Positions 13,773 to 17,482 of a stretch of 25,324 nt of DNA are shown piece after piece; positions within the stretch are counted from its first letter, which is position 1; the number at the start of each line of letters is the position of its first letter. The position numbers and the translations under genes are program-made. Where the stretch lies: assembly GCA_015694865.1 (NCBI GenBank), contig GCA_015694865.1_3933.1; one strand, given 5' to 3'. A model generated the notes under the pieces. That model was given only the letters and a program-made list of their open reading frames with translations, searched no databases and was not told the origin of the DNA. The stretch is from a phage.

Positions 13773-14028
13773 ATTAAATCTTTTTAGAGAACTTCTAAGA
13801 ACCTAAGCAACAAGGTTCCACAACAAGCTGTAATAACCTTAGAAGCCCTCTAAAAAGACCTAAAAAGGTCTTTGCATAGTCTTGTTTAATCCGGTGACTA
13901 GAACCTTTGGAGAGCTTGATATTATCTCTTCTCCGTGACACCTACTAGGTGCTTTACTGTGCTTGTACGACAATACACGAGGGATACCAAAGCAACATCC
14001 GAATGAAGCTTGGCTTTAAACCTTATTA

Positions 14029-14757: not shown

Positions 14758-14834
14758 TGGAGGTTCAGATGGGATTCGAACCCATCGCCTGTCAGATTAA
14801 AAGTCTGCCGCATCACCATTCTGCTACACTTCCA
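14758..14834 (-). tRNA. tRNA-Lys-like (anticodon TTT) with poorly paired acceptor stem (possible pseudo-tRNA)
   Basis: Paralogous in sequence to the 13612..13687 tRNA-Lys; good T-arm ATGGG-TTCGAAT-CCCAT and anticodon arm GCAGA-CTTTTAA-TCTGA, but acceptor strands GGAAGTG vs CTGAACC pair at only 3 of 7 positions. Confidence 0.45.
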
Positions 14835-14837
14835 TTA

Positions 14838-14981
14838 AATTATCTTTGTAGATAAGCTACCCAGACTTGCTTAATGTCTGTAGCGATGTGCCTTTTTGGG
14901 TTTAAATCTAGAATTTACCCTTTCACCCTTTGTGGTCGCATACTCACAGGTAAGCTTAATAACTTATCTACAAAGATAATT
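14838..14981. repeat. 19-bp perfect inverted repeat (14838-14856 / 14963-14981) flanking a 106-bp non-coding segment
   Basis: aattatctttgtagataag at 14838-14856 is the exact reverse complement of cttatctacaaagataatt at 14963-14981. Confidence 0.7.
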
Positions 14982-15030
14982 ACCAGACCGTTGTTTATCA
15001 TCTTAAGTGCTACCATTACACCAACTCGAC

Positions 15031-15080
15031 ATCTGCCGAGTGAAGGAATCGAACCTTCGCCTTTTCTTTACCGGAGAAAT
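15031..15080 (-). ncRNA. tRNA-like fragment (T-arm plus 3' acceptor strand without a pairing 5' strand)
   Basis: Reverse complement gives TTTCT-CCGGTAA-AGAAA, then GAAGG-TTCGATT-CCTTC-ACTCGGC; no complementary 5' acceptor strand or recognisable D-arm within about 80 nt upstream. Confidence 0.35.
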
Positions 15081-15120
15081 AGATTGTTTAAGTTTTGCTG
15101 AATACGGTCTTCTGCAAAAT

Positions 15121-15197
15121 TGGAGGCGGGTGCAGGAGTCGAACCTACCGATACCATGCTAATGAGACATGTGAGACGCCCTTTCTCTATACCCGCA
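15121..15197 (-). tRNA. tRNA-Met (anticodon CAT; elongator, initiator or Ile2 not distinguishable)
   Basis: 77 nt; T-arm GTAGG-TTCGACT-CCTGC, anticodon stem CATGT/GCATG with loop CTCATTA, acceptor ACCCGCC with a 1-72 T-C mismatch in the best register, CCA encoded. Confidence 0.6.
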
Positions 15198-15287
15198 ATT
15201 CTCAATGACCAGACCAAATATCTTCTTTGTCCGATTTCGTGTCAGATGAGTAGATTAAGTTTGCTGTAATTGGTCTTCTGTCAAAAC

Positions 15288-15449: not shown

Positions 15450-15567
15450 ATAAACTTTTCAAACTCTATGTAACCACTTTAACATTATTTTTTAGTGGTT
15501 GTCAAGAACTTTTTTAAAATATTTTTCAGTATCTTAGAAAAGCTCTCATTTCGTTTCTATGTAGAAC

Positions 15568-15614: not shown

Positions 15615-17029
15615 TTACCAGATGTAACGGTCAATCATTACTGCTTTGAGCATTACACTGATTGGGTCAAACTTCTCACCACCAAGCAGAGCTTTTAAAG
15701 TAGCTGGAGAAAAACCAGATACCATTGCTACACCGTTATCCTTAACAGACACTTCGCAAGTACCATTACGGTTTGCTAAGTACCAGAATACCAGTTGAGG
15801 CATTTCGTATCCAGCTTTTTTGTACTTACTCTGAATTGCTTCAAAGTTTGTACGACCGTTAGCTCCATCAACCTGATTGAACTCCATATCGGAGAAGATG
15901 ATAAGCTTACTTGCATGTCTTTCTTAGTCAAGTTGTTTCTCTTACCTACCTCAAGAATCCGGTCAAAAGCTGCTTGTAAGTTAGTTGAGCCATATTCAAC
16001 ATGTCGCATCACCTGACGATGACGGTTTCGTAAATCACCACTCAGTTCGATGAAGTGAGGGTTTGTTGAATAAACCATTAACTCATCCTTAAAGCAACCT
16101 GTATTGCGTTCTGCTACATACAAGGCAAGGGATACACCAATATCAAGGGCAGTGATTGAACCAAGATTCACCCAAGACATTGAGCTTGAAACATCAGTCA
16201 TACACAAGATGTTTTCACCTTCTGCCATCCAGTTTGGTAGTGCTTTCCACTGCTCATTGGCAACATCTGCATTACCATGCTTGATAGACTTAATCACATC
16301 GTATGGGTAAACAGCACCAGCGTTAATCTTAGTCTCACCTTTTGATAAGGACTCAATGTAAGCTTTGTAACGTTCTCCATCCTTACGGTTAAACAGTTTT
16401 TGGTAACGTGCAGCAGCAAGTGAAGGAGTCTTACTGTAGTCAATCTTACCAAACTCATTAGCAGAGATTTTTTGCTCAACTGTATCAGATAGTGCAGACA
16501 ACAGTGTGCGGTACTCTTTCTCACTCAAGTTGGCAAACTTGCAGAAACGTTTTACAAACTGCTTATGACGTGGTTTGACTCGTGGTAACCACTTAGCCGC
16601 CAAACCTGCTGTTGCAGGTTCTAGTAATGCTGCTTCTAGATGTTTGAAGGCATCTGTCTCGAAACGAGTACCTACGAAGATTTTGAAGTCATCAAAACGA
16701 CCAAGTTCTGCAATCTTATCCATAATGCGAAGAACCTGCGTAGGCTCTAAAACTTTGTCTTCAATCGCTTGAAGTAAAACAGTTCTGAAGGCTTTACGCT
16801 CACCCATACCTTCTCGTACATCTCGCATATGAAGCAAAATACGAACTGCAACATCAACATCCTCACGCAAAGCTTTGTAGAACAGGTCTGGTAAGATTTC
16901 TACGTTGCTACGGCTTGAACCAGCAGCTTTGTAAAAGTCTACAAGAGCAGACATTGATGAAGTATGGTTTACAGCACCATTTTCAGTTCGACCTGCATGA
17001 AGGTGCGCATGTTTAAATAATTCGCTCAT
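15615..17029 (-). CDS. Ro60-like vWA-domain protein, interrupted by an apparent frameshift near 15885-15926
   Basis: Two overlapping minus-strand ORFs (15776..17029 and 15615..15887) in different frames; MIDAS-like TDVSSSM motif in the first; the second frame reads ...HASKLIIFSDMEFNQ..., typical of the end of a vWA fold. Ro60-like (DUF2828-type) assignment is from memory. Confidence 0.6.
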
Positions 17030-17110: not shown

Positions 17111-17482
17111 TTATTTTTTGAGAGTCGCTACAGCAGAGAACGTTGGTTTGTTATCTGTCTGAGACTGACCACCATTATCAGGGGTCTTCTTAGTGTCTGC
17201 TGCAATCGCTTTCATCTCACCTGCTGAGTGAGTCATGATGGTTTTACCAGCCTCCATCATCGACTTCAGGTTTACATCGTCAGTCGTCAAACCGAACTCT
17301 GCAAGCTTAGCAGCATCCCTTGTAACAACCGCCTCAAACAACTTTGCAGCAAACTCAGCAGAATTATCAATGGTCAGTTGAGCTTTTACAAGTGAGCTTT
17401 TGTTACGAGAGCCTTTTGGTCTTCCAGATGGGTTTCCAGACTGGCCTTTTTTAAACTGGCCTTTGTTTGTTCTGTTTTTCAT
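17111..17482 (-). CDS. small basic protein with GNPSGRPKG motif (candidate DNA-binding protein or small terminase-like protein)
   Basis: 123 aa ORF; N-terminal K/R-rich region with GNPSGRPKG; first gene of the minus-strand operon. Confidence 0.5.
   Translation of the reverse strand: MKNRTNKGQFKKGQSGNPSGRPKGSRNKSSLVKAQLTIDNSAEFAAKLFEAVVTRDAAKLAEFGLTTDDVNLKSMMEAGKTIMTHSAGEMKAIAADTKKTPDNGGQSQTDNKPTFSAVATLKK

What the first reader, a model, noticed from the sequence alone, without database searches (positions are those of the whole stretch)
14838..14981. 19-bp perfect inverted repeat bracketing a 106-bp non-coding segment within the tRNA array
The two arms are exact reverse complements. This is long for a chance match in an AT-rich spacer. 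On the minus-strand transcript it would form a 19-bp stem with a large loop, suggesting a processing site, a small structured RNA, a protein-binding palindrome, or a miniature inverted-repeat element.
Basis: seen in the sequence. Interest (0 to 1): 0.55.

Follow-up and report, generated by a model that had tools for sequence, protein, structure and literature searches.

The report
Conserved structured RNA in phage tRNA operon
The inverted repeat is the closing stem of a conserved, folded non-coding RNA of about 144 nt that Felix O1-like phages transcribe with their tRNAs, next to a tRNA-mimicking Y-type RNA and downstream of a Ro60-like RNA-binding protein gene; I found no description of such an RNA-protein system in these phages.

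Summary
Positions 14838-14856 and 14963-14981 are exact reverse complements around 106 nt, and chance does not explain this. Read on the minus strand, which is the tRNA strand, the helix extends to 24 bp through three G·U pairs.

It is not a MITE, a tRNA remnant or a coding feature. It is helix P1 of a ~144-nt structured RNA that lies 0-14 nt upstream of tRNA-Lys(UUU). I found this RNA in seven sequence lineages of Felix O1-like phages and their relatives.

- **P1:** it keeps 21-26 pairs although its sequence is almost entirely replaced between lineages. Eleven of 22 pairs covary and 99% of cells are paired.
- **Inner structure:** hairpins H2 and H3 also covary, as does a candidate pseudoknot between junction J1 and the H3 loop.
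- **Rfam:** no family matches.

The context matters most. Immediately upstream lies a YrlA-type tRNA mimic (T arm, closed 7-bp acceptor stem, D arm). The operon begins with a DUF2828 gene whose predicted fold matches Ro60/TROVE proteins. Similar tRNA mimics sit beside DUF2828 genes in unrelated phages.

My best reading is a stable RNA cut out of the tRNA precursor, probably working with the phage Ro60-like/Y-RNA system. The structure is shown. The processing route and the Ro60 link are inferred.

The parts
14958..14981 (-). P1 5' strand of the 144-nt RNA (AAUUAUCUUUGUAGAUAAGUUAUU).
   Evidence: 24 pairs in the window (21 Watson-Crick + 3 G·U). Eleven of 22 model pairs covary across 24 sequences.
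14838..14861 (-). P1 3' strand (GGUAGCUUAUCUACAAAGAUAAUU). It ends 6-7 nt before tRNA-Lys.
14951..14955 (-). Junction J1 (GCUUA), candidate pseudoknot strand.
   Evidence: pairs with UAAGC in the H3 loop. Type B and L041 have GCUAA/UUAGC, and L125 has GUUCA/UGAAC.
14931..14948 (-). H1: short hairpin UGUG/CACA with conserved loop AGUAUGCGAC.
   Evidence: the stem is GGGG/CCCC in L042 with the same loop. Type B has UCGUC/GAUGA with loop CCAUGAGUGCC. Pairing is weaker in the model alignment (81%).
14898..14920 (-). H2: hairpin GGGU AAAUU CUA GAUUU(AA)ACCC, with the 6-nt palindrome UCUAGA at its apex.
   Evidence: the upper helices covary (GC<->AU, GC<->CG, AU<->UA). AUUCUAGAUU is invariant in types A and B. 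The apex is ACUAGU in L042.
14862..14880 (-). H3: CAGAC / GUCUG with a 9-nt loop (AUUAAGCAA). Loop positions 14869-14873 (UAAGC) are the second pseudoknot strand.
   Evidence: 100% paired and 4 of 6 pairs covary. One search covers the pseudoknot.
14983..15114 (-). Adjacent YrlA-like Y RNA module. Enclosing helix AGACCGU (15104-15110) / ACGGUCU (14985-14991), 5' motif UUCAGCAA, V hairpin 15063-15079, T arm 15042-15058, closed 7-bp acceptor-like stem 15024-15041, D arm 15007-15021.
   Evidence: sub-threshold tRNA match, 22 bits; acceptor-like stem 99% paired, 3 of 7 pairs covary with three pair types.
14758..14830 (-). tRNA-Lys(UUU). In this window it is a Met/Lys chimera. RNase P cleavage at its 5' end would define the 3' end of the 144-nt RNA (inferred).
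15615..17029 (-). Ro60/TROVE-like gene (Pfam DUF2828 + DUF7788, vWA MIDAS motif DxSxS), first gene of the operon side. Here it is split by a 1-nt deletion near 15914.
15476..15505 (-). Sigma-70-like promoter match (TTGACA-18-TAAAGT with TG) upstream of tRNA-Pro. No terminator-like site lies between it and the unit on the minus strand.
   Evidence: consensus match only.

Best explanation
The inverted repeat is helix P1 (about 22-24 bp, including G·U pairs) of a ~144-nt structured non-coding RNA. The RNA is made on the minus strand as part of the polycistronic tRNA transcript of a Felix O1-like phage. P1 closes a multi-helix core made of H1, H2 (palindromic apex) and H3, and the H3 loop probably pairs with junction J1 to form a pseudoknot.

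Inferred mechanism: RNase P cleavage at the 5' end of tRNA-Lys, 0-14 nt downstream, creates the RNA's 3' end. The long helix then blocks 3'-exonucleases, so the domain accumulates as a discrete stable RNA. RNase III cleavage within P1 is an alternative or additional route of release.

The RNA always lies in an operon that starts with a Ro60/TROVE-like (DUF2828) gene and carries YrlA-type Y RNAs. It is therefore most likely a further RNA component, or a ligand, of that phage Ro60-like ribonucleoprotein, which acts on tRNA or RNA metabolism during infection.

Shown: the helix, its strand, its conservation and covariation, the context, the fold of the protein and the recurrence of YrlA-like RNAs. 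Inferred: expression as a stable RNA, the processing steps and any binding to the Ro60-like protein.
For: - **The helix is real and non-random**.
- **It is an RNA helix on the minus strand.** Two U·G pairs are present in all 21 type A/B versions, and 98.2% of cells pair against 31-44% when partners are slid. Model R1 scores 48-178 bits on the tRNA strand and 21-32 bits on the other.
- **It is conserved with covariation.** Type A and type B inner sequences are barely alignable yet keep P1, H2 and H3. R1, built from type B only, finds type A, L041, L042, L123, L124 and L125. In the 24-sequence model alignment 28 of 48 pairs change on both sides (shuffle mean 15.1, 0 of 500 shuffles reach it; slid controls 3-7). 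P1 is 99.4% paired with 11 covarying pairs. P1 has 21-26 pairs in seven lineages with different sequences.
- **Pseudoknot:** 95.8% paired, UA<->AU switch; GUUCA/UGAAC in L125.
- **Position:** always 0-14 nt before tRNA-Lys(UUU).
- **No conserved ORF** and **no Rfam family**.
- **Context:** the upstream gene's model (pLDDT 88.9) gives only Ro60/TROVE structures as its top 12 PDB hits, over the full length, with E from 4e-8 to 1.5e-6. The adjacent T-AS-D element covaries. Equivalent elements occur beside DUF2828 genes in unrelated phage contigs at E from 1e-10 to 1e-4, with the same enclosing helix and 5' UUNCAGCA motif.
- **Published Ro60 systems** encode their Y RNAs within a few kb on the same strand (PMC4201824; PMC12135203).
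Against: - No expression, end-mapping or binding data exist for this RNA.
- The unit was not detected in 75 more distant DUF2828 loci, so it is specific to one lineage and not a universal partner of the protein.
- It lacks the 5' motif of the Y-like modules and the canonical GNCGAAN0-1G motif, apart from GCCGAAG in the Sf13 type.
- The P1 sequence is not conserved, unlike the Ro-binding stem of classical Y RNAs.
- Viable isolates lack it (SP116), so it is dispensable in culture.
- The Ro60-like gene is frameshifted in this very window.
- H1 and the base of H2 pair less consistently (81-84%), and the pseudoknot is not evident in L124.
- The model alignment is fitted to the structure, and the sequences are phylogenetically related, so the counts overstate the number of independent events.
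Confidence: 0.55

Rival explanations
1. A pure processing stalk or insulator. The ~22-bp helix is an RNase III site, like the stalks flanking 16S and 23S rRNA. It splits the long tRNA precursor and stops neighbouring tRNAs from misfolding, and the excised inner RNA has no function of its own.
For: The helix length stays near two turns (21-26 bp) while its sequence drifts, which is what a length- and shape-read substrate predicts. It lies between tRNAs with no promoter or terminator of its own. A second long hairpin sits in the same way just before tRNA-Leu(UAG), at 13777-13860. RNase III involvement in processing the T4 tRNA cluster is from my own memory of older literature.
Against: The inner 100 nt is not free to drift. 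The H2 apex AUUCUAGAUU, the H1 loop and the H3 loop are conserved, H2 and H3 covary, and a junction-loop pseudoknot covaries. A stalk alone would not need these. Most other spacers in the array need no such element.
Confidence: 0.2
2. An independent trans-acting phage RNA unrelated to the Ro60-like protein. One example is a decoy or regulator tied to tRNA-Lys(UUU), such as a mimic of the Lys anticodon stem-loop that titrates a host anticodon nuclease. Another is a dimerising RNA that uses the palindromic H2 apex.
For: The unit is strictly next to tRNA-Lys(UUU) in all seven lineages, even where tRNA-Ala separates it from the YrlA-like element. By eye, H3 (CAGAC CUUAAGCAA GUCUG) resembles the tRNA-Lys anticodon arm (CAGA CUUUUAA UCUG). 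The apex palindrome is kept as UCUAGA or ACUAGU. The unit is absent from distant DUF2828 loci.
Against: The adjacency may be inherited synteny. The H3 loop has 9 nt, and its middle is probably engaged in the pseudoknot. No target or partner was identified, and no similarity to E. coli genomes was found.
Confidence: 0.17
3. A DNA-level element: a cruciform, a protein-binding palindrome, a recombination hotspot or a MITE-like mobile unit.
For: The DNA repeat is perfect over 19 bp in this phage. The region is recombinogenic, with deletions in the window, SP116 and ESCO45 and a type A/type B cassette exchange whose breakpoints lie inside the arms.
Against: There is a single copy and no target-site duplication or intact empty site was seen. 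The G·U pairs would be A·C mismatches in DNA. The arm sequence is not conserved between lineages although pairing is. The observed deletions use tRNA T-arm homology or repeated spacer motifs, not the arms.
Confidence: 0.04
4. A decayed tRNA gene (a remnant) whose acceptor stem happens to be extended, with no current function.
For: The topology resembles a cloverleaf: a closing helix plus three hairpins, with a loop-junction contact. It sits in a tRNA array in which chimeric and truncated tRNAs exist.
Against: Neither the Rfam tRNA model nor ARAGORN reports anything in 14838-14981, and there is no T-loop or D-loop signature. Covariation in seven lineages shows selection on this specific structure. 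An ancient tRNA origin cannot be excluded, but that would not make it a remnant.
Confidence: 0.04

Closest known systems
Bacterial and phage Y RNAs (YrlA, YrlB, Yrn1; Yrl1 and Yrl2 of Thermus phage phiLo) bound by Ro60/Rsr
   Same: These are small structured RNAs encoded within a few kb of a Ro60-type gene on the same strand. Several different RNAs can serve one protein, a stem is formed by the 5' and 3' ends, and a tRNA-like module is present in one of them (PMC4201824; PMC12135203). Here a Ro60-fold gene, a YrlA-like T-AS-D module and the 144-nt RNA with a terminal stem share one strand within 2 kb.
   Different: The 144-nt unit has no tRNA-like module, no bulged Ro-binding helix of conserved sequence and no GNCGAAN0-1G or CGAA motif in most lineages. 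The protein belongs to DUF2828 (about 13% identity to solved Ro60s, no Pfam TROVE hit). The RNAs are embedded in a tRNA array. Binding is untested.
Phage T4 species 1 and species 2 RNAs (rnaC, rnaD)
   Same: They are stable small RNAs of 139 and 119 nt, of unknown function, co-transcribed with and cut out of a phage tRNA cluster (annotation).
   Different: No sequence or architectural similarity was found. rnaC carries a T arm and a short terminal stem and has no long closing helix. R1 finds nothing in the T4 locus, and no Ro60-like gene is annotated in the 6 kb of T4 that I fetched.
RNase III processing stalks of rRNA operons and phage early transcripts
   Same: A helix of about two turns, formed by sequences flanking a structured RNA inside a polycistronic precursor.
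   Different: Cleavage is not shown here. The enclosed RNA is only about 100 nt, with its own conserved loops and pseudoknot.
tRNA
   Same: The unit has a four-way-junction topology with a loop-to-junction tertiary contact, lies in a tRNA array, and would have its 3' end set by RNase P acting on the next tRNA.
   Different: The closing helix has 22-24 bp rather than 7 bp. There are no T-loop or D-loop consensus sequences and no anticodon loop, and tRNA models do not match.

Membership tests
Y RNA (Ro60-associated ncRNA), tested for the 144-nt unit | Encoded near a Ro60/TROVE-type gene, on the same strand | tested here: met
   The gene at 15615-17029(-) has a Ro60 fold. The unit lies about 630 nt downstream in the window and about 1.3 kb downstream in ASO1A. 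The same synteny holds in L041, L042 and L123-L125.
Y RNA (Ro60-associated ncRNA), tested for the 144-nt unit | Stem formed by the 5' and 3' ends of the RNA | tested here: met
   P1 has 21-26 bp in seven lineages. The true RNA ends were not mapped.
Y RNA (Ro60-associated ncRNA), tested for the 144-nt unit | Conserved Ro-binding motif (GGUCCGA bulged helix in animals; GNCGAAN0-1G or CGAA in bacteria and phage) | tested here: not met
   P1 is unbulged in Felixounavirus and its sequence is not conserved between lineages. GCCGAAG occurs only in the Sf13 type; other type B sequences have GCCGAUG and type A has UGCGACC.
Y RNA (Ro60-associated ncRNA), tested for the 144-nt unit | Physical binding to the Ro60 protein | not testable with these tools
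   Needs RIP/CLIP or EMSA.
YrlA-type tRNA-mimic Y RNA, tested for the adjacent element 14983-15114 | Order V stem-loop, T arm, closed acceptor-like stem (AS), D arm, with tRNA-invariant nucleotides | tested here: met
   Alignment A4. T loop UUCGAUU, U8, D loop AAUGGUA. The AS has 7 bp, is 99% paired and 3 of its pairs covary with three pair types. The layout is as described in PMC4201824.
YrlA-type tRNA-mimic Y RNA, tested for the adjacent element 14983-15114 | 5' GNCGAAN0-1G motif | tested here: not met
   A different conserved motif, UUNC(A/C)GCA(A), follows the 5' strand of the enclosing helix here and in distant DUF2828 loci.
YrlA-type tRNA-mimic Y RNA, tested for the adjacent element 14983-15114 | Recurs beside the Ro60-type gene in unrelated genomes | tested here: met
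   R2 hits at L067 (47.7 bits), L085 (39 and 25), L124 (49.8), L123 (39.6), L125 (29), L115 and L120/L121. All are on the gene's strand and none overlaps an ARAGORN tRNA in L067, L085, L115 or L123-L125; L120 and L121 were not scanned.
Ro60/TROVE protein, tested for the gene 15615-17029 | HEAT-repeat ring followed by a vWA domain with a MIDAS motif | tested here: met
   Foldseek's top 12 hits are all Ro60/TROVE chains over the full length (TM-score on the query 0.47-0.65); the next hits are vWA domains only. D279, S281 and S283 are invariant. No sequence-level TROVE hit was found, so this is a fold-level assignment.
MITE / mobile inverted-repeat element | Multiple dispersed copies, target-site duplication, presence/absence polymorphism with intact empty sites | tested here: not met
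   Single copy in the window. The position is syntenic in 252 phage records. Absences are larger deletions that also remove neighbouring genes. No match in E. coli genomes.
tRNA or tRNA pseudogene, tested for the unit | Match to tRNA covariance or heuristic models; T-loop and D-loop signatures | tested here: not met
   ARAGORN and Rfam RF00005 report nothing in 14838-14981, even at E<=10.
Any Rfam 15 family | Score at or near the gathering threshold | tested here: not met
   No hit on the unit at E<=10 with permissive filters.
RNase III processing stalk | Cleavage by RNase III within the helix | not testable with these tools
   The length of about 22 bp is compatible. End mapping in rnc+ and rnc- hosts is needed.

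The most novel reading that the evidence does not exclude
The 144-nt pseudoknotted RNA is a new RNA class. It would be a dedicated second RNA subunit, or an effector tether, of a previously unrecognised phage Ro60-like (DUF2828) ribonucleoprotein that is built into tRNA operons. That complex would control maturation, quality control or protection of phage tRNAs, tRNA-Lys(UUU) in particular, against host RNases or anticodon nucleases.
Probability: 0.3. Interest if true: 0.8.

Novelty: new variant of a known kind. Interest (0 to 1): 0.65.

Why it matters
- **An unannotated RNA in a well-used phage group.** Felix O1-like phages are classic typing and biocontrol phages. Most of the record rows I saw list nothing or only tRNA-Lys under this interval, a few call a hypothetical protein and one (REP5) a tRNA-Thr. 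The interval in fact holds a conserved structured RNA and, beside it, a tRNA-mimic Y RNA.
- **A new and large setting for Ro60 biology.** The fold-level identification of the DUF2828 family (more than 2,500 homologs, more than 589 viral loci) as Ro60-like, its frequent placement next to same-strand tRNA arrays, and the recurrent YrlA-like RNAs with their own 5' motif extend Ro60/Y-RNA biology beyond the systems described in the papers I read (mycobacteriophages, CcrColossus, phage G, phiLo).
- **A testable question.** What Y RNAs and Ro60 do in microbes is still open. This system can be studied genetically in E. coli and Salmonella hosts.
- **A reusable tool.** The 144-nt RNA now has a defined, covariation-supported fold that can be mutated directly.

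Tried and rejected
1. **Rfam.** Scans of the array and of the 300-nt interval gave nothing on the unit.
2. **MITE or dispersed repeat.** The arm search in the window and blastn against 5,426 E. coli genomes found no extra copies.
3. **Coding.** The antisense 75-aa ORF, annotated as hypothetical in some records, exists only in type A. The sense 33-aa ORF is absent from Mooglevirus-type sequences.
4. **Two-piece (permuted) tmRNA, or a permuted tRNA gene maturing into a decoding tRNA, for the upstream element.** I rejected both. ARAGORN finds no tmRNA and there is no G3·U70. The 'anticodon' loop varies between 6 and 7 nt, has C33 in most Felixounaviruses and changes triplet (GGU, AUG). The layout equals YrlA's V-T-AS-D.
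5. **Homology with T4 rnaC/rnaD.** No similarity.
6. **One composite RNA made of the YrlA-like module plus the unit.** I rejected this as a general rule because tRNA-Ala separates them in L123-L125 and L041.
7. **The unit beside distant DUF2828 genes.** R1 found none in L048-L122.
8. **Pattern scans of IMG/VR with motifs from the unit.** These returned only Ounavirinae contigs plus two chance hits in coding DNA, L034 and L035.
9. **Sequence search of the protein against the PDB.** Uninformative; only the fold comparison worked.
10. **Literature searches** on Felixounavirus tRNA regions, permuted tRNAs in phages, DUF2828, and TROVE with Felix found no description of this locus.

Full report
**1. 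The observation**

The window is part of a Felix O1-like myovirus genome (Ounavirinae). A 701-bp stretch around the finding matches 254 phage records, nearly all Felixounavirus and its relatives. All 22 tRNA genes are on the minus strand.

Positions 14838-14856 and 14963-14981 are exact reverse complements around 106 nt. At up to 3 mismatches the arm occurs nowhere else in the window, against 0.04 matches expected. On the minus-strand RNA the helix continues through U·G pairs to 24 bp.

**2. The repeat is the closing helix of a conserved RNA**

The unit is present at the same place, just upstream of tRNA-Lys(UUU), in about 250 records. It comes in two forms.

- **Type A** occurs in this window, ASO1A and Felix O1.
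- **Type B** occurs in pSJ21, tootiki, Mooglevirus and Suspvirus.

The inner ~100 nt of the two forms are barely alignable. Both keep the long helix, the invariant sequence AUUCUAGAUU and a hairpin CAGAC...GUCUG.

On 21 distinct sequences the 24-pair helix is 98.2% paired, against 31-44% when partners are slid. Changes on both sides occur at four pairs, and there is one paired indel. Two U·G pairs are present in every sequence. On the opposite strand or in duplex DNA these would be mismatches.

**3. More lineages and the inner structure**

Covariance model R1 was built from type B only. It recovers type A at 47-53 bits. It also recovers much more distant units:

- L041, Yersinia phage P778, 39 bits;
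- L042, 35 bits;
- L124, L123 and L125, at 28, 25 and 20 bits with filters off.

Reverse-strand scores are 21-32 bits.

In the 24-sequence model alignment 28 of 48 pairs change on both sides. The shuffle mean is 15.1, none of 500 shuffles reaches the observed value, and slid controls give 3-7. P1 is 99.4% paired with 11 covarying pairs. H3 is 100% paired with 4 of 6 pairs covarying, and the upper H2 helices covary. H1 and the base of H2 are weaker, at 81-84% paired. This alignment is fitted to the structure, and the sequences are related, so the number of independent events is smaller than the cell counts suggest.

Across seven lineages P1 keeps 21-26 pairs, with 1-4 G·U pairs each, while its sequence differs in each.

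A five-pair interaction between junction J1 and the H3 loop also changes in step:

| Lineage | J1 / H3 loop |
|---|---|
| Type A, L042 | GCUUA / UAAGC |
| Type B, L041 | GCUAA / UUAGC |
| L123 | GCUU / AAGC |
| L125 | GUUCA / UGAAC |
| L124 | not evident |

. I treat this as a candidate pseudoknot.

No Rfam family matches the unit. No ORF is conserved. There is no similarity to E. coli genomes.

**4. What lies next to it**

Directly upstream in transcript sense (14983-15114) is an element that Rfam scores as a sub-threshold tRNA (22 bits). Its order is a hairpin, a canonical T arm (GAAGG UUCGAUU CCUUC), a 3' acceptor strand, a 4-nt loop, a 5' acceptor strand, U8, and a canonical D arm (GUGU AAUGGUA GCAC).

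The closed acceptor-like stem covaries fully between lineages: ACUCGGC/GUCGAGU, ACACGUU/GGCGUGU and ACCCUUC/GAAGGGU. It is 99% paired.

This is the V-T-AS-D layout of YrlA, the tRNA-mimic Y RNA of bacterial Ro60 (Rsr) systems (PMC4201824). In that paper the M. smegmatis YrlA, which has a 7-bp AS, is cut by RNase P and receives CCA. In the Mordin type the loop here reads G-CCA-AACA.

The element is enclosed by a helix, AGACCGU/ACGGUCU, whose 5' strand is followed by UUNCAGCAA. The same frame, AGAAGACC-NN...NN-GGUCUGG with covarying NN, recurs around simple hairpins. There are two copies in the window, four in ASO1A and three in L042.

**5. The protein**

The gene that precedes the array on the same strand (15615-17029) belongs to Pfam DUF2828 + DUF7788 and to PHROG 850, 'RNA-binding protein'.

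- An AlphaFold model of a 98%-identical homolog has pLDDT 88.9 and pTM 0.88.
- Its 12 best PDB matches are exclusively Ro60/TROVE proteins aligned over the full length: Xenopus and human Ro60, D. radiodurans Rsr and Thermus phage phiLo Ro60. E-values run from 4e-8 to 1.5e-6 and TM-scores on the query from 0.47 to 0.65. After these come only isolated vWA domains.
- The MIDAS motif DxSxS is invariant.
- There is no sequence-level TROVE hit, so this is a fold-level assignment.

The family is large, with more than 2,546 homologs and at least 589 viral stretches. In about half of 60 distant viral loci, tRNA genes lie beside the gene. All are on its strand, and often they start within 400 nt of its stop codon.

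**6. The tRNA mimic recurs with this protein**

Model R2 covers T-AS-D only. It finds elements beside DUF2828 genes in unrelated contigs, each with its own complementary AS:

- L067 (47.7 bits, E=1e-10);
- L085 (two in tandem, the first 58 nt after the stop codon);
- L115, and L120/L121;
- L124, L123 and L125.

T-D forms without an AS lie just upstream of the gene in L067, L069 and L056. No hit in L067, L085, L115 or L123-L125 overlaps a predicted tRNA; L120 and L121 were not scanned for tRNAs. Junctions between adjacent tRNAs score below 24 bits.

Nearly all of these elements are enclosed by a 6-9-bp helix followed by UU(N)C(A/C)GCA(A). The canonical GNCGAAN0-1G motif is absent. These look like a DUF2828-specific branch of YrlA-like Y RNAs. 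In the literature available here I found Ro60/Y-RNA pairs described for mycobacteriophages, CcrColossus, phage G, phiLo and some jumbo phages. I found nothing for Felix O1-like phages or for DUF2828.

**7. How the 144-nt RNA most likely works**

Shown:

- It lies in the tRNA transcription unit. The nearest promoter-like site is upstream of tRNA-Pro, and no terminator-like site intervenes.
- Its 3' helix strand ends 0-14 nt before tRNA-Lys +1 in every lineage.
- In the P778 clade a tRNA-Ala separates it from the YrlA-like RNA, so it is a separate molecule after processing.

Inferred:

- RNase P at tRNA-Lys sets its 3' end.
- The long helix protects it from 3' exonucleases, and RNase III may cut within it.
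- The conserved loops and the pseudoknot, not the helix sequence, carry the function.

Its constant company (a Ro60-like gene, Y-like modules and a YrlA-like mimic) makes a role in that ribonucleoprotein the most economical hypothesis. After RNase P cleavage it would be a helix with a short single-stranded 3' tail. From my own knowledge, this is the kind of ligand Ro60 binds (compare the PDB entry 2I91 title).

Several facts count against a tight link:

- The unit is absent from distant DUF2828 loci.
- It has no Y-RNA motif.
- Viable isolates lack it (SP116) or keep it without the mimic (ESCO45).
- The Ro60-like gene carries a 1-nt deletion in this window.

**8. Verdict**

The finding is real and is a conserved structured RNA. 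I put this at about 0.9, and at 0.55 for the full statement that includes processing and the Ro60 context. The rivals are a pure processing stalk (0.2), an independent RNA linked to tRNA-Lys or a dimerising RNA (0.17), a DNA-level element (0.04) and a tRNA remnant (0.04).

I file it as a new variant of a known kind: phage Ro60/Y-RNA loci and stable RNAs in phage tRNA clusters. The unit itself matches no described family.

Noticed in passing
window 14983-15114 (-): A YrlA-type tRNA mimic: V hairpin, T arm, closed 7-bp acceptor-like stem and D arm inside a helix AGACCGU/ACGGUCU. The acceptor-like stem covaries fully between lineages. One record (REP5) lists a tRNA-Thr under this interval; ASO1B, AYO145A and LTH02 list tRNA-Thr, tRNA-OTHER or a tRNA pseudogene under a wider 701-bp match, which I did not place.
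   Followed up: yes
window 15615-17029 (-): The DUF2828/DUF7788 gene has a Ro60/TROVE + vWA fold. In this window a 1-nt deletion near 15914, relative to ASO1A, splits it into 417-aa and 90-aa ORFs. This may be a sequencing error or a real inactivation.
   Followed up: yes
window 15209-15279 (-) and 14983-15113 (-); L001 has four copies: A paralogous spacer module AGAAGACC-NN-(U/A)U(N)CAGCAA...NN-GGUCUGG, with covarying NN (AA/UU or GU/AC). It surrounds either a simple hairpin or the tRNA mimic. These are possibly a family of small Y-like RNAs.
   Followed up: partly
L048-L119 (IMG/VR loci encoding DUF2828 homologs): In about half of 60 distant viral loci, tRNA genes lie next to the Ro60-like gene. 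All are on its strand, and often they start within a few hundred nt of its stop codon.
   Followed up: partly
L067 4879-4922, L069 4830-4872, L056 1569-1611: T arm + D arm elements with almost no acceptor-like stem lie about 40-130 nt upstream of the DUF2828 start codon, again inside a helix followed by UUNC(A/C)GCA. They look like a second architectural variant of the Y-like RNA.
   Followed up: no
window 14758-14830 (-) and ~15095-15122: Relative to ASO1A the window has two deletions. A tRNA-Met was lost by recombination between T arms, leaving a Met/Lys chimeric 'tRNA-Lys'. A further 448 bp carrying tRNA-Asp, tRNA-Tyr, tRNA-Asn and two spacer modules was lost between repeated CAGAAGACC motifs.
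   Followed up: partly
window 13777-13860 (-): A second long hairpin (stem of about 24 bp, -39 kcal/mol) lies directly before tRNA-Leu(UAG). It ends ...AAAAAGAUUUAAU|GG, much like the unit's ...CAAAGAUAAUUUAAU|GG before tRNA-Lys. Rfam gives a spurious MIR473 hit there and R1 a weak 15-bit hit.
   Followed up: partly
L038 (SP116) ~900-960; L039 (ESCO45) 700-900: Natural deletion variants exist. SP116 fuses the mimic's T arm to the 3' end of tRNA-Lys and loses the unit. ESCO45 keeps the unit but lacks the mimic and has a truncated tRNA-Lys. The array is highly plastic, and each element is dispensable in culture.
   Followed up: partly
L003, L004 versus L001 (unit region): Within the genus Felixounavirus the inner ~120 nt of the unit exists as two allelic cassettes, types A and B. 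The exchange boundaries lie inside the P1 arms, which suggests recombination with Mooglevirus- or Suspvirus-type phages.
   Followed up: partly
L007, L015, L018, L033 (Mordin type), acceptor-like loop: The loop closing the acceptor-like stem reads G-CCA-AACA, which is a discriminator plus an encoded CCA. L085 6559-6620 has GCCAAUU likewise. This is compatible with RNase P cleavage and a tRNA-like 3' end, as reported for M. smegmatis YrlA.
   Followed up: no
L068 1257-1707; L073 10822-11176: ARAGORN predicts tmRNA genes (one of them permuted) within a few kb of the DUF2828 gene in two distant viral contigs.
   Followed up: no
window 17111-17482 (-), and L041, L042, L123-L125: A small DUF5681 gene always precedes the Ro60-like gene, giving the conserved gene pair DUF5681-DUF2828 ahead of the tRNA array.
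   Followed up: no
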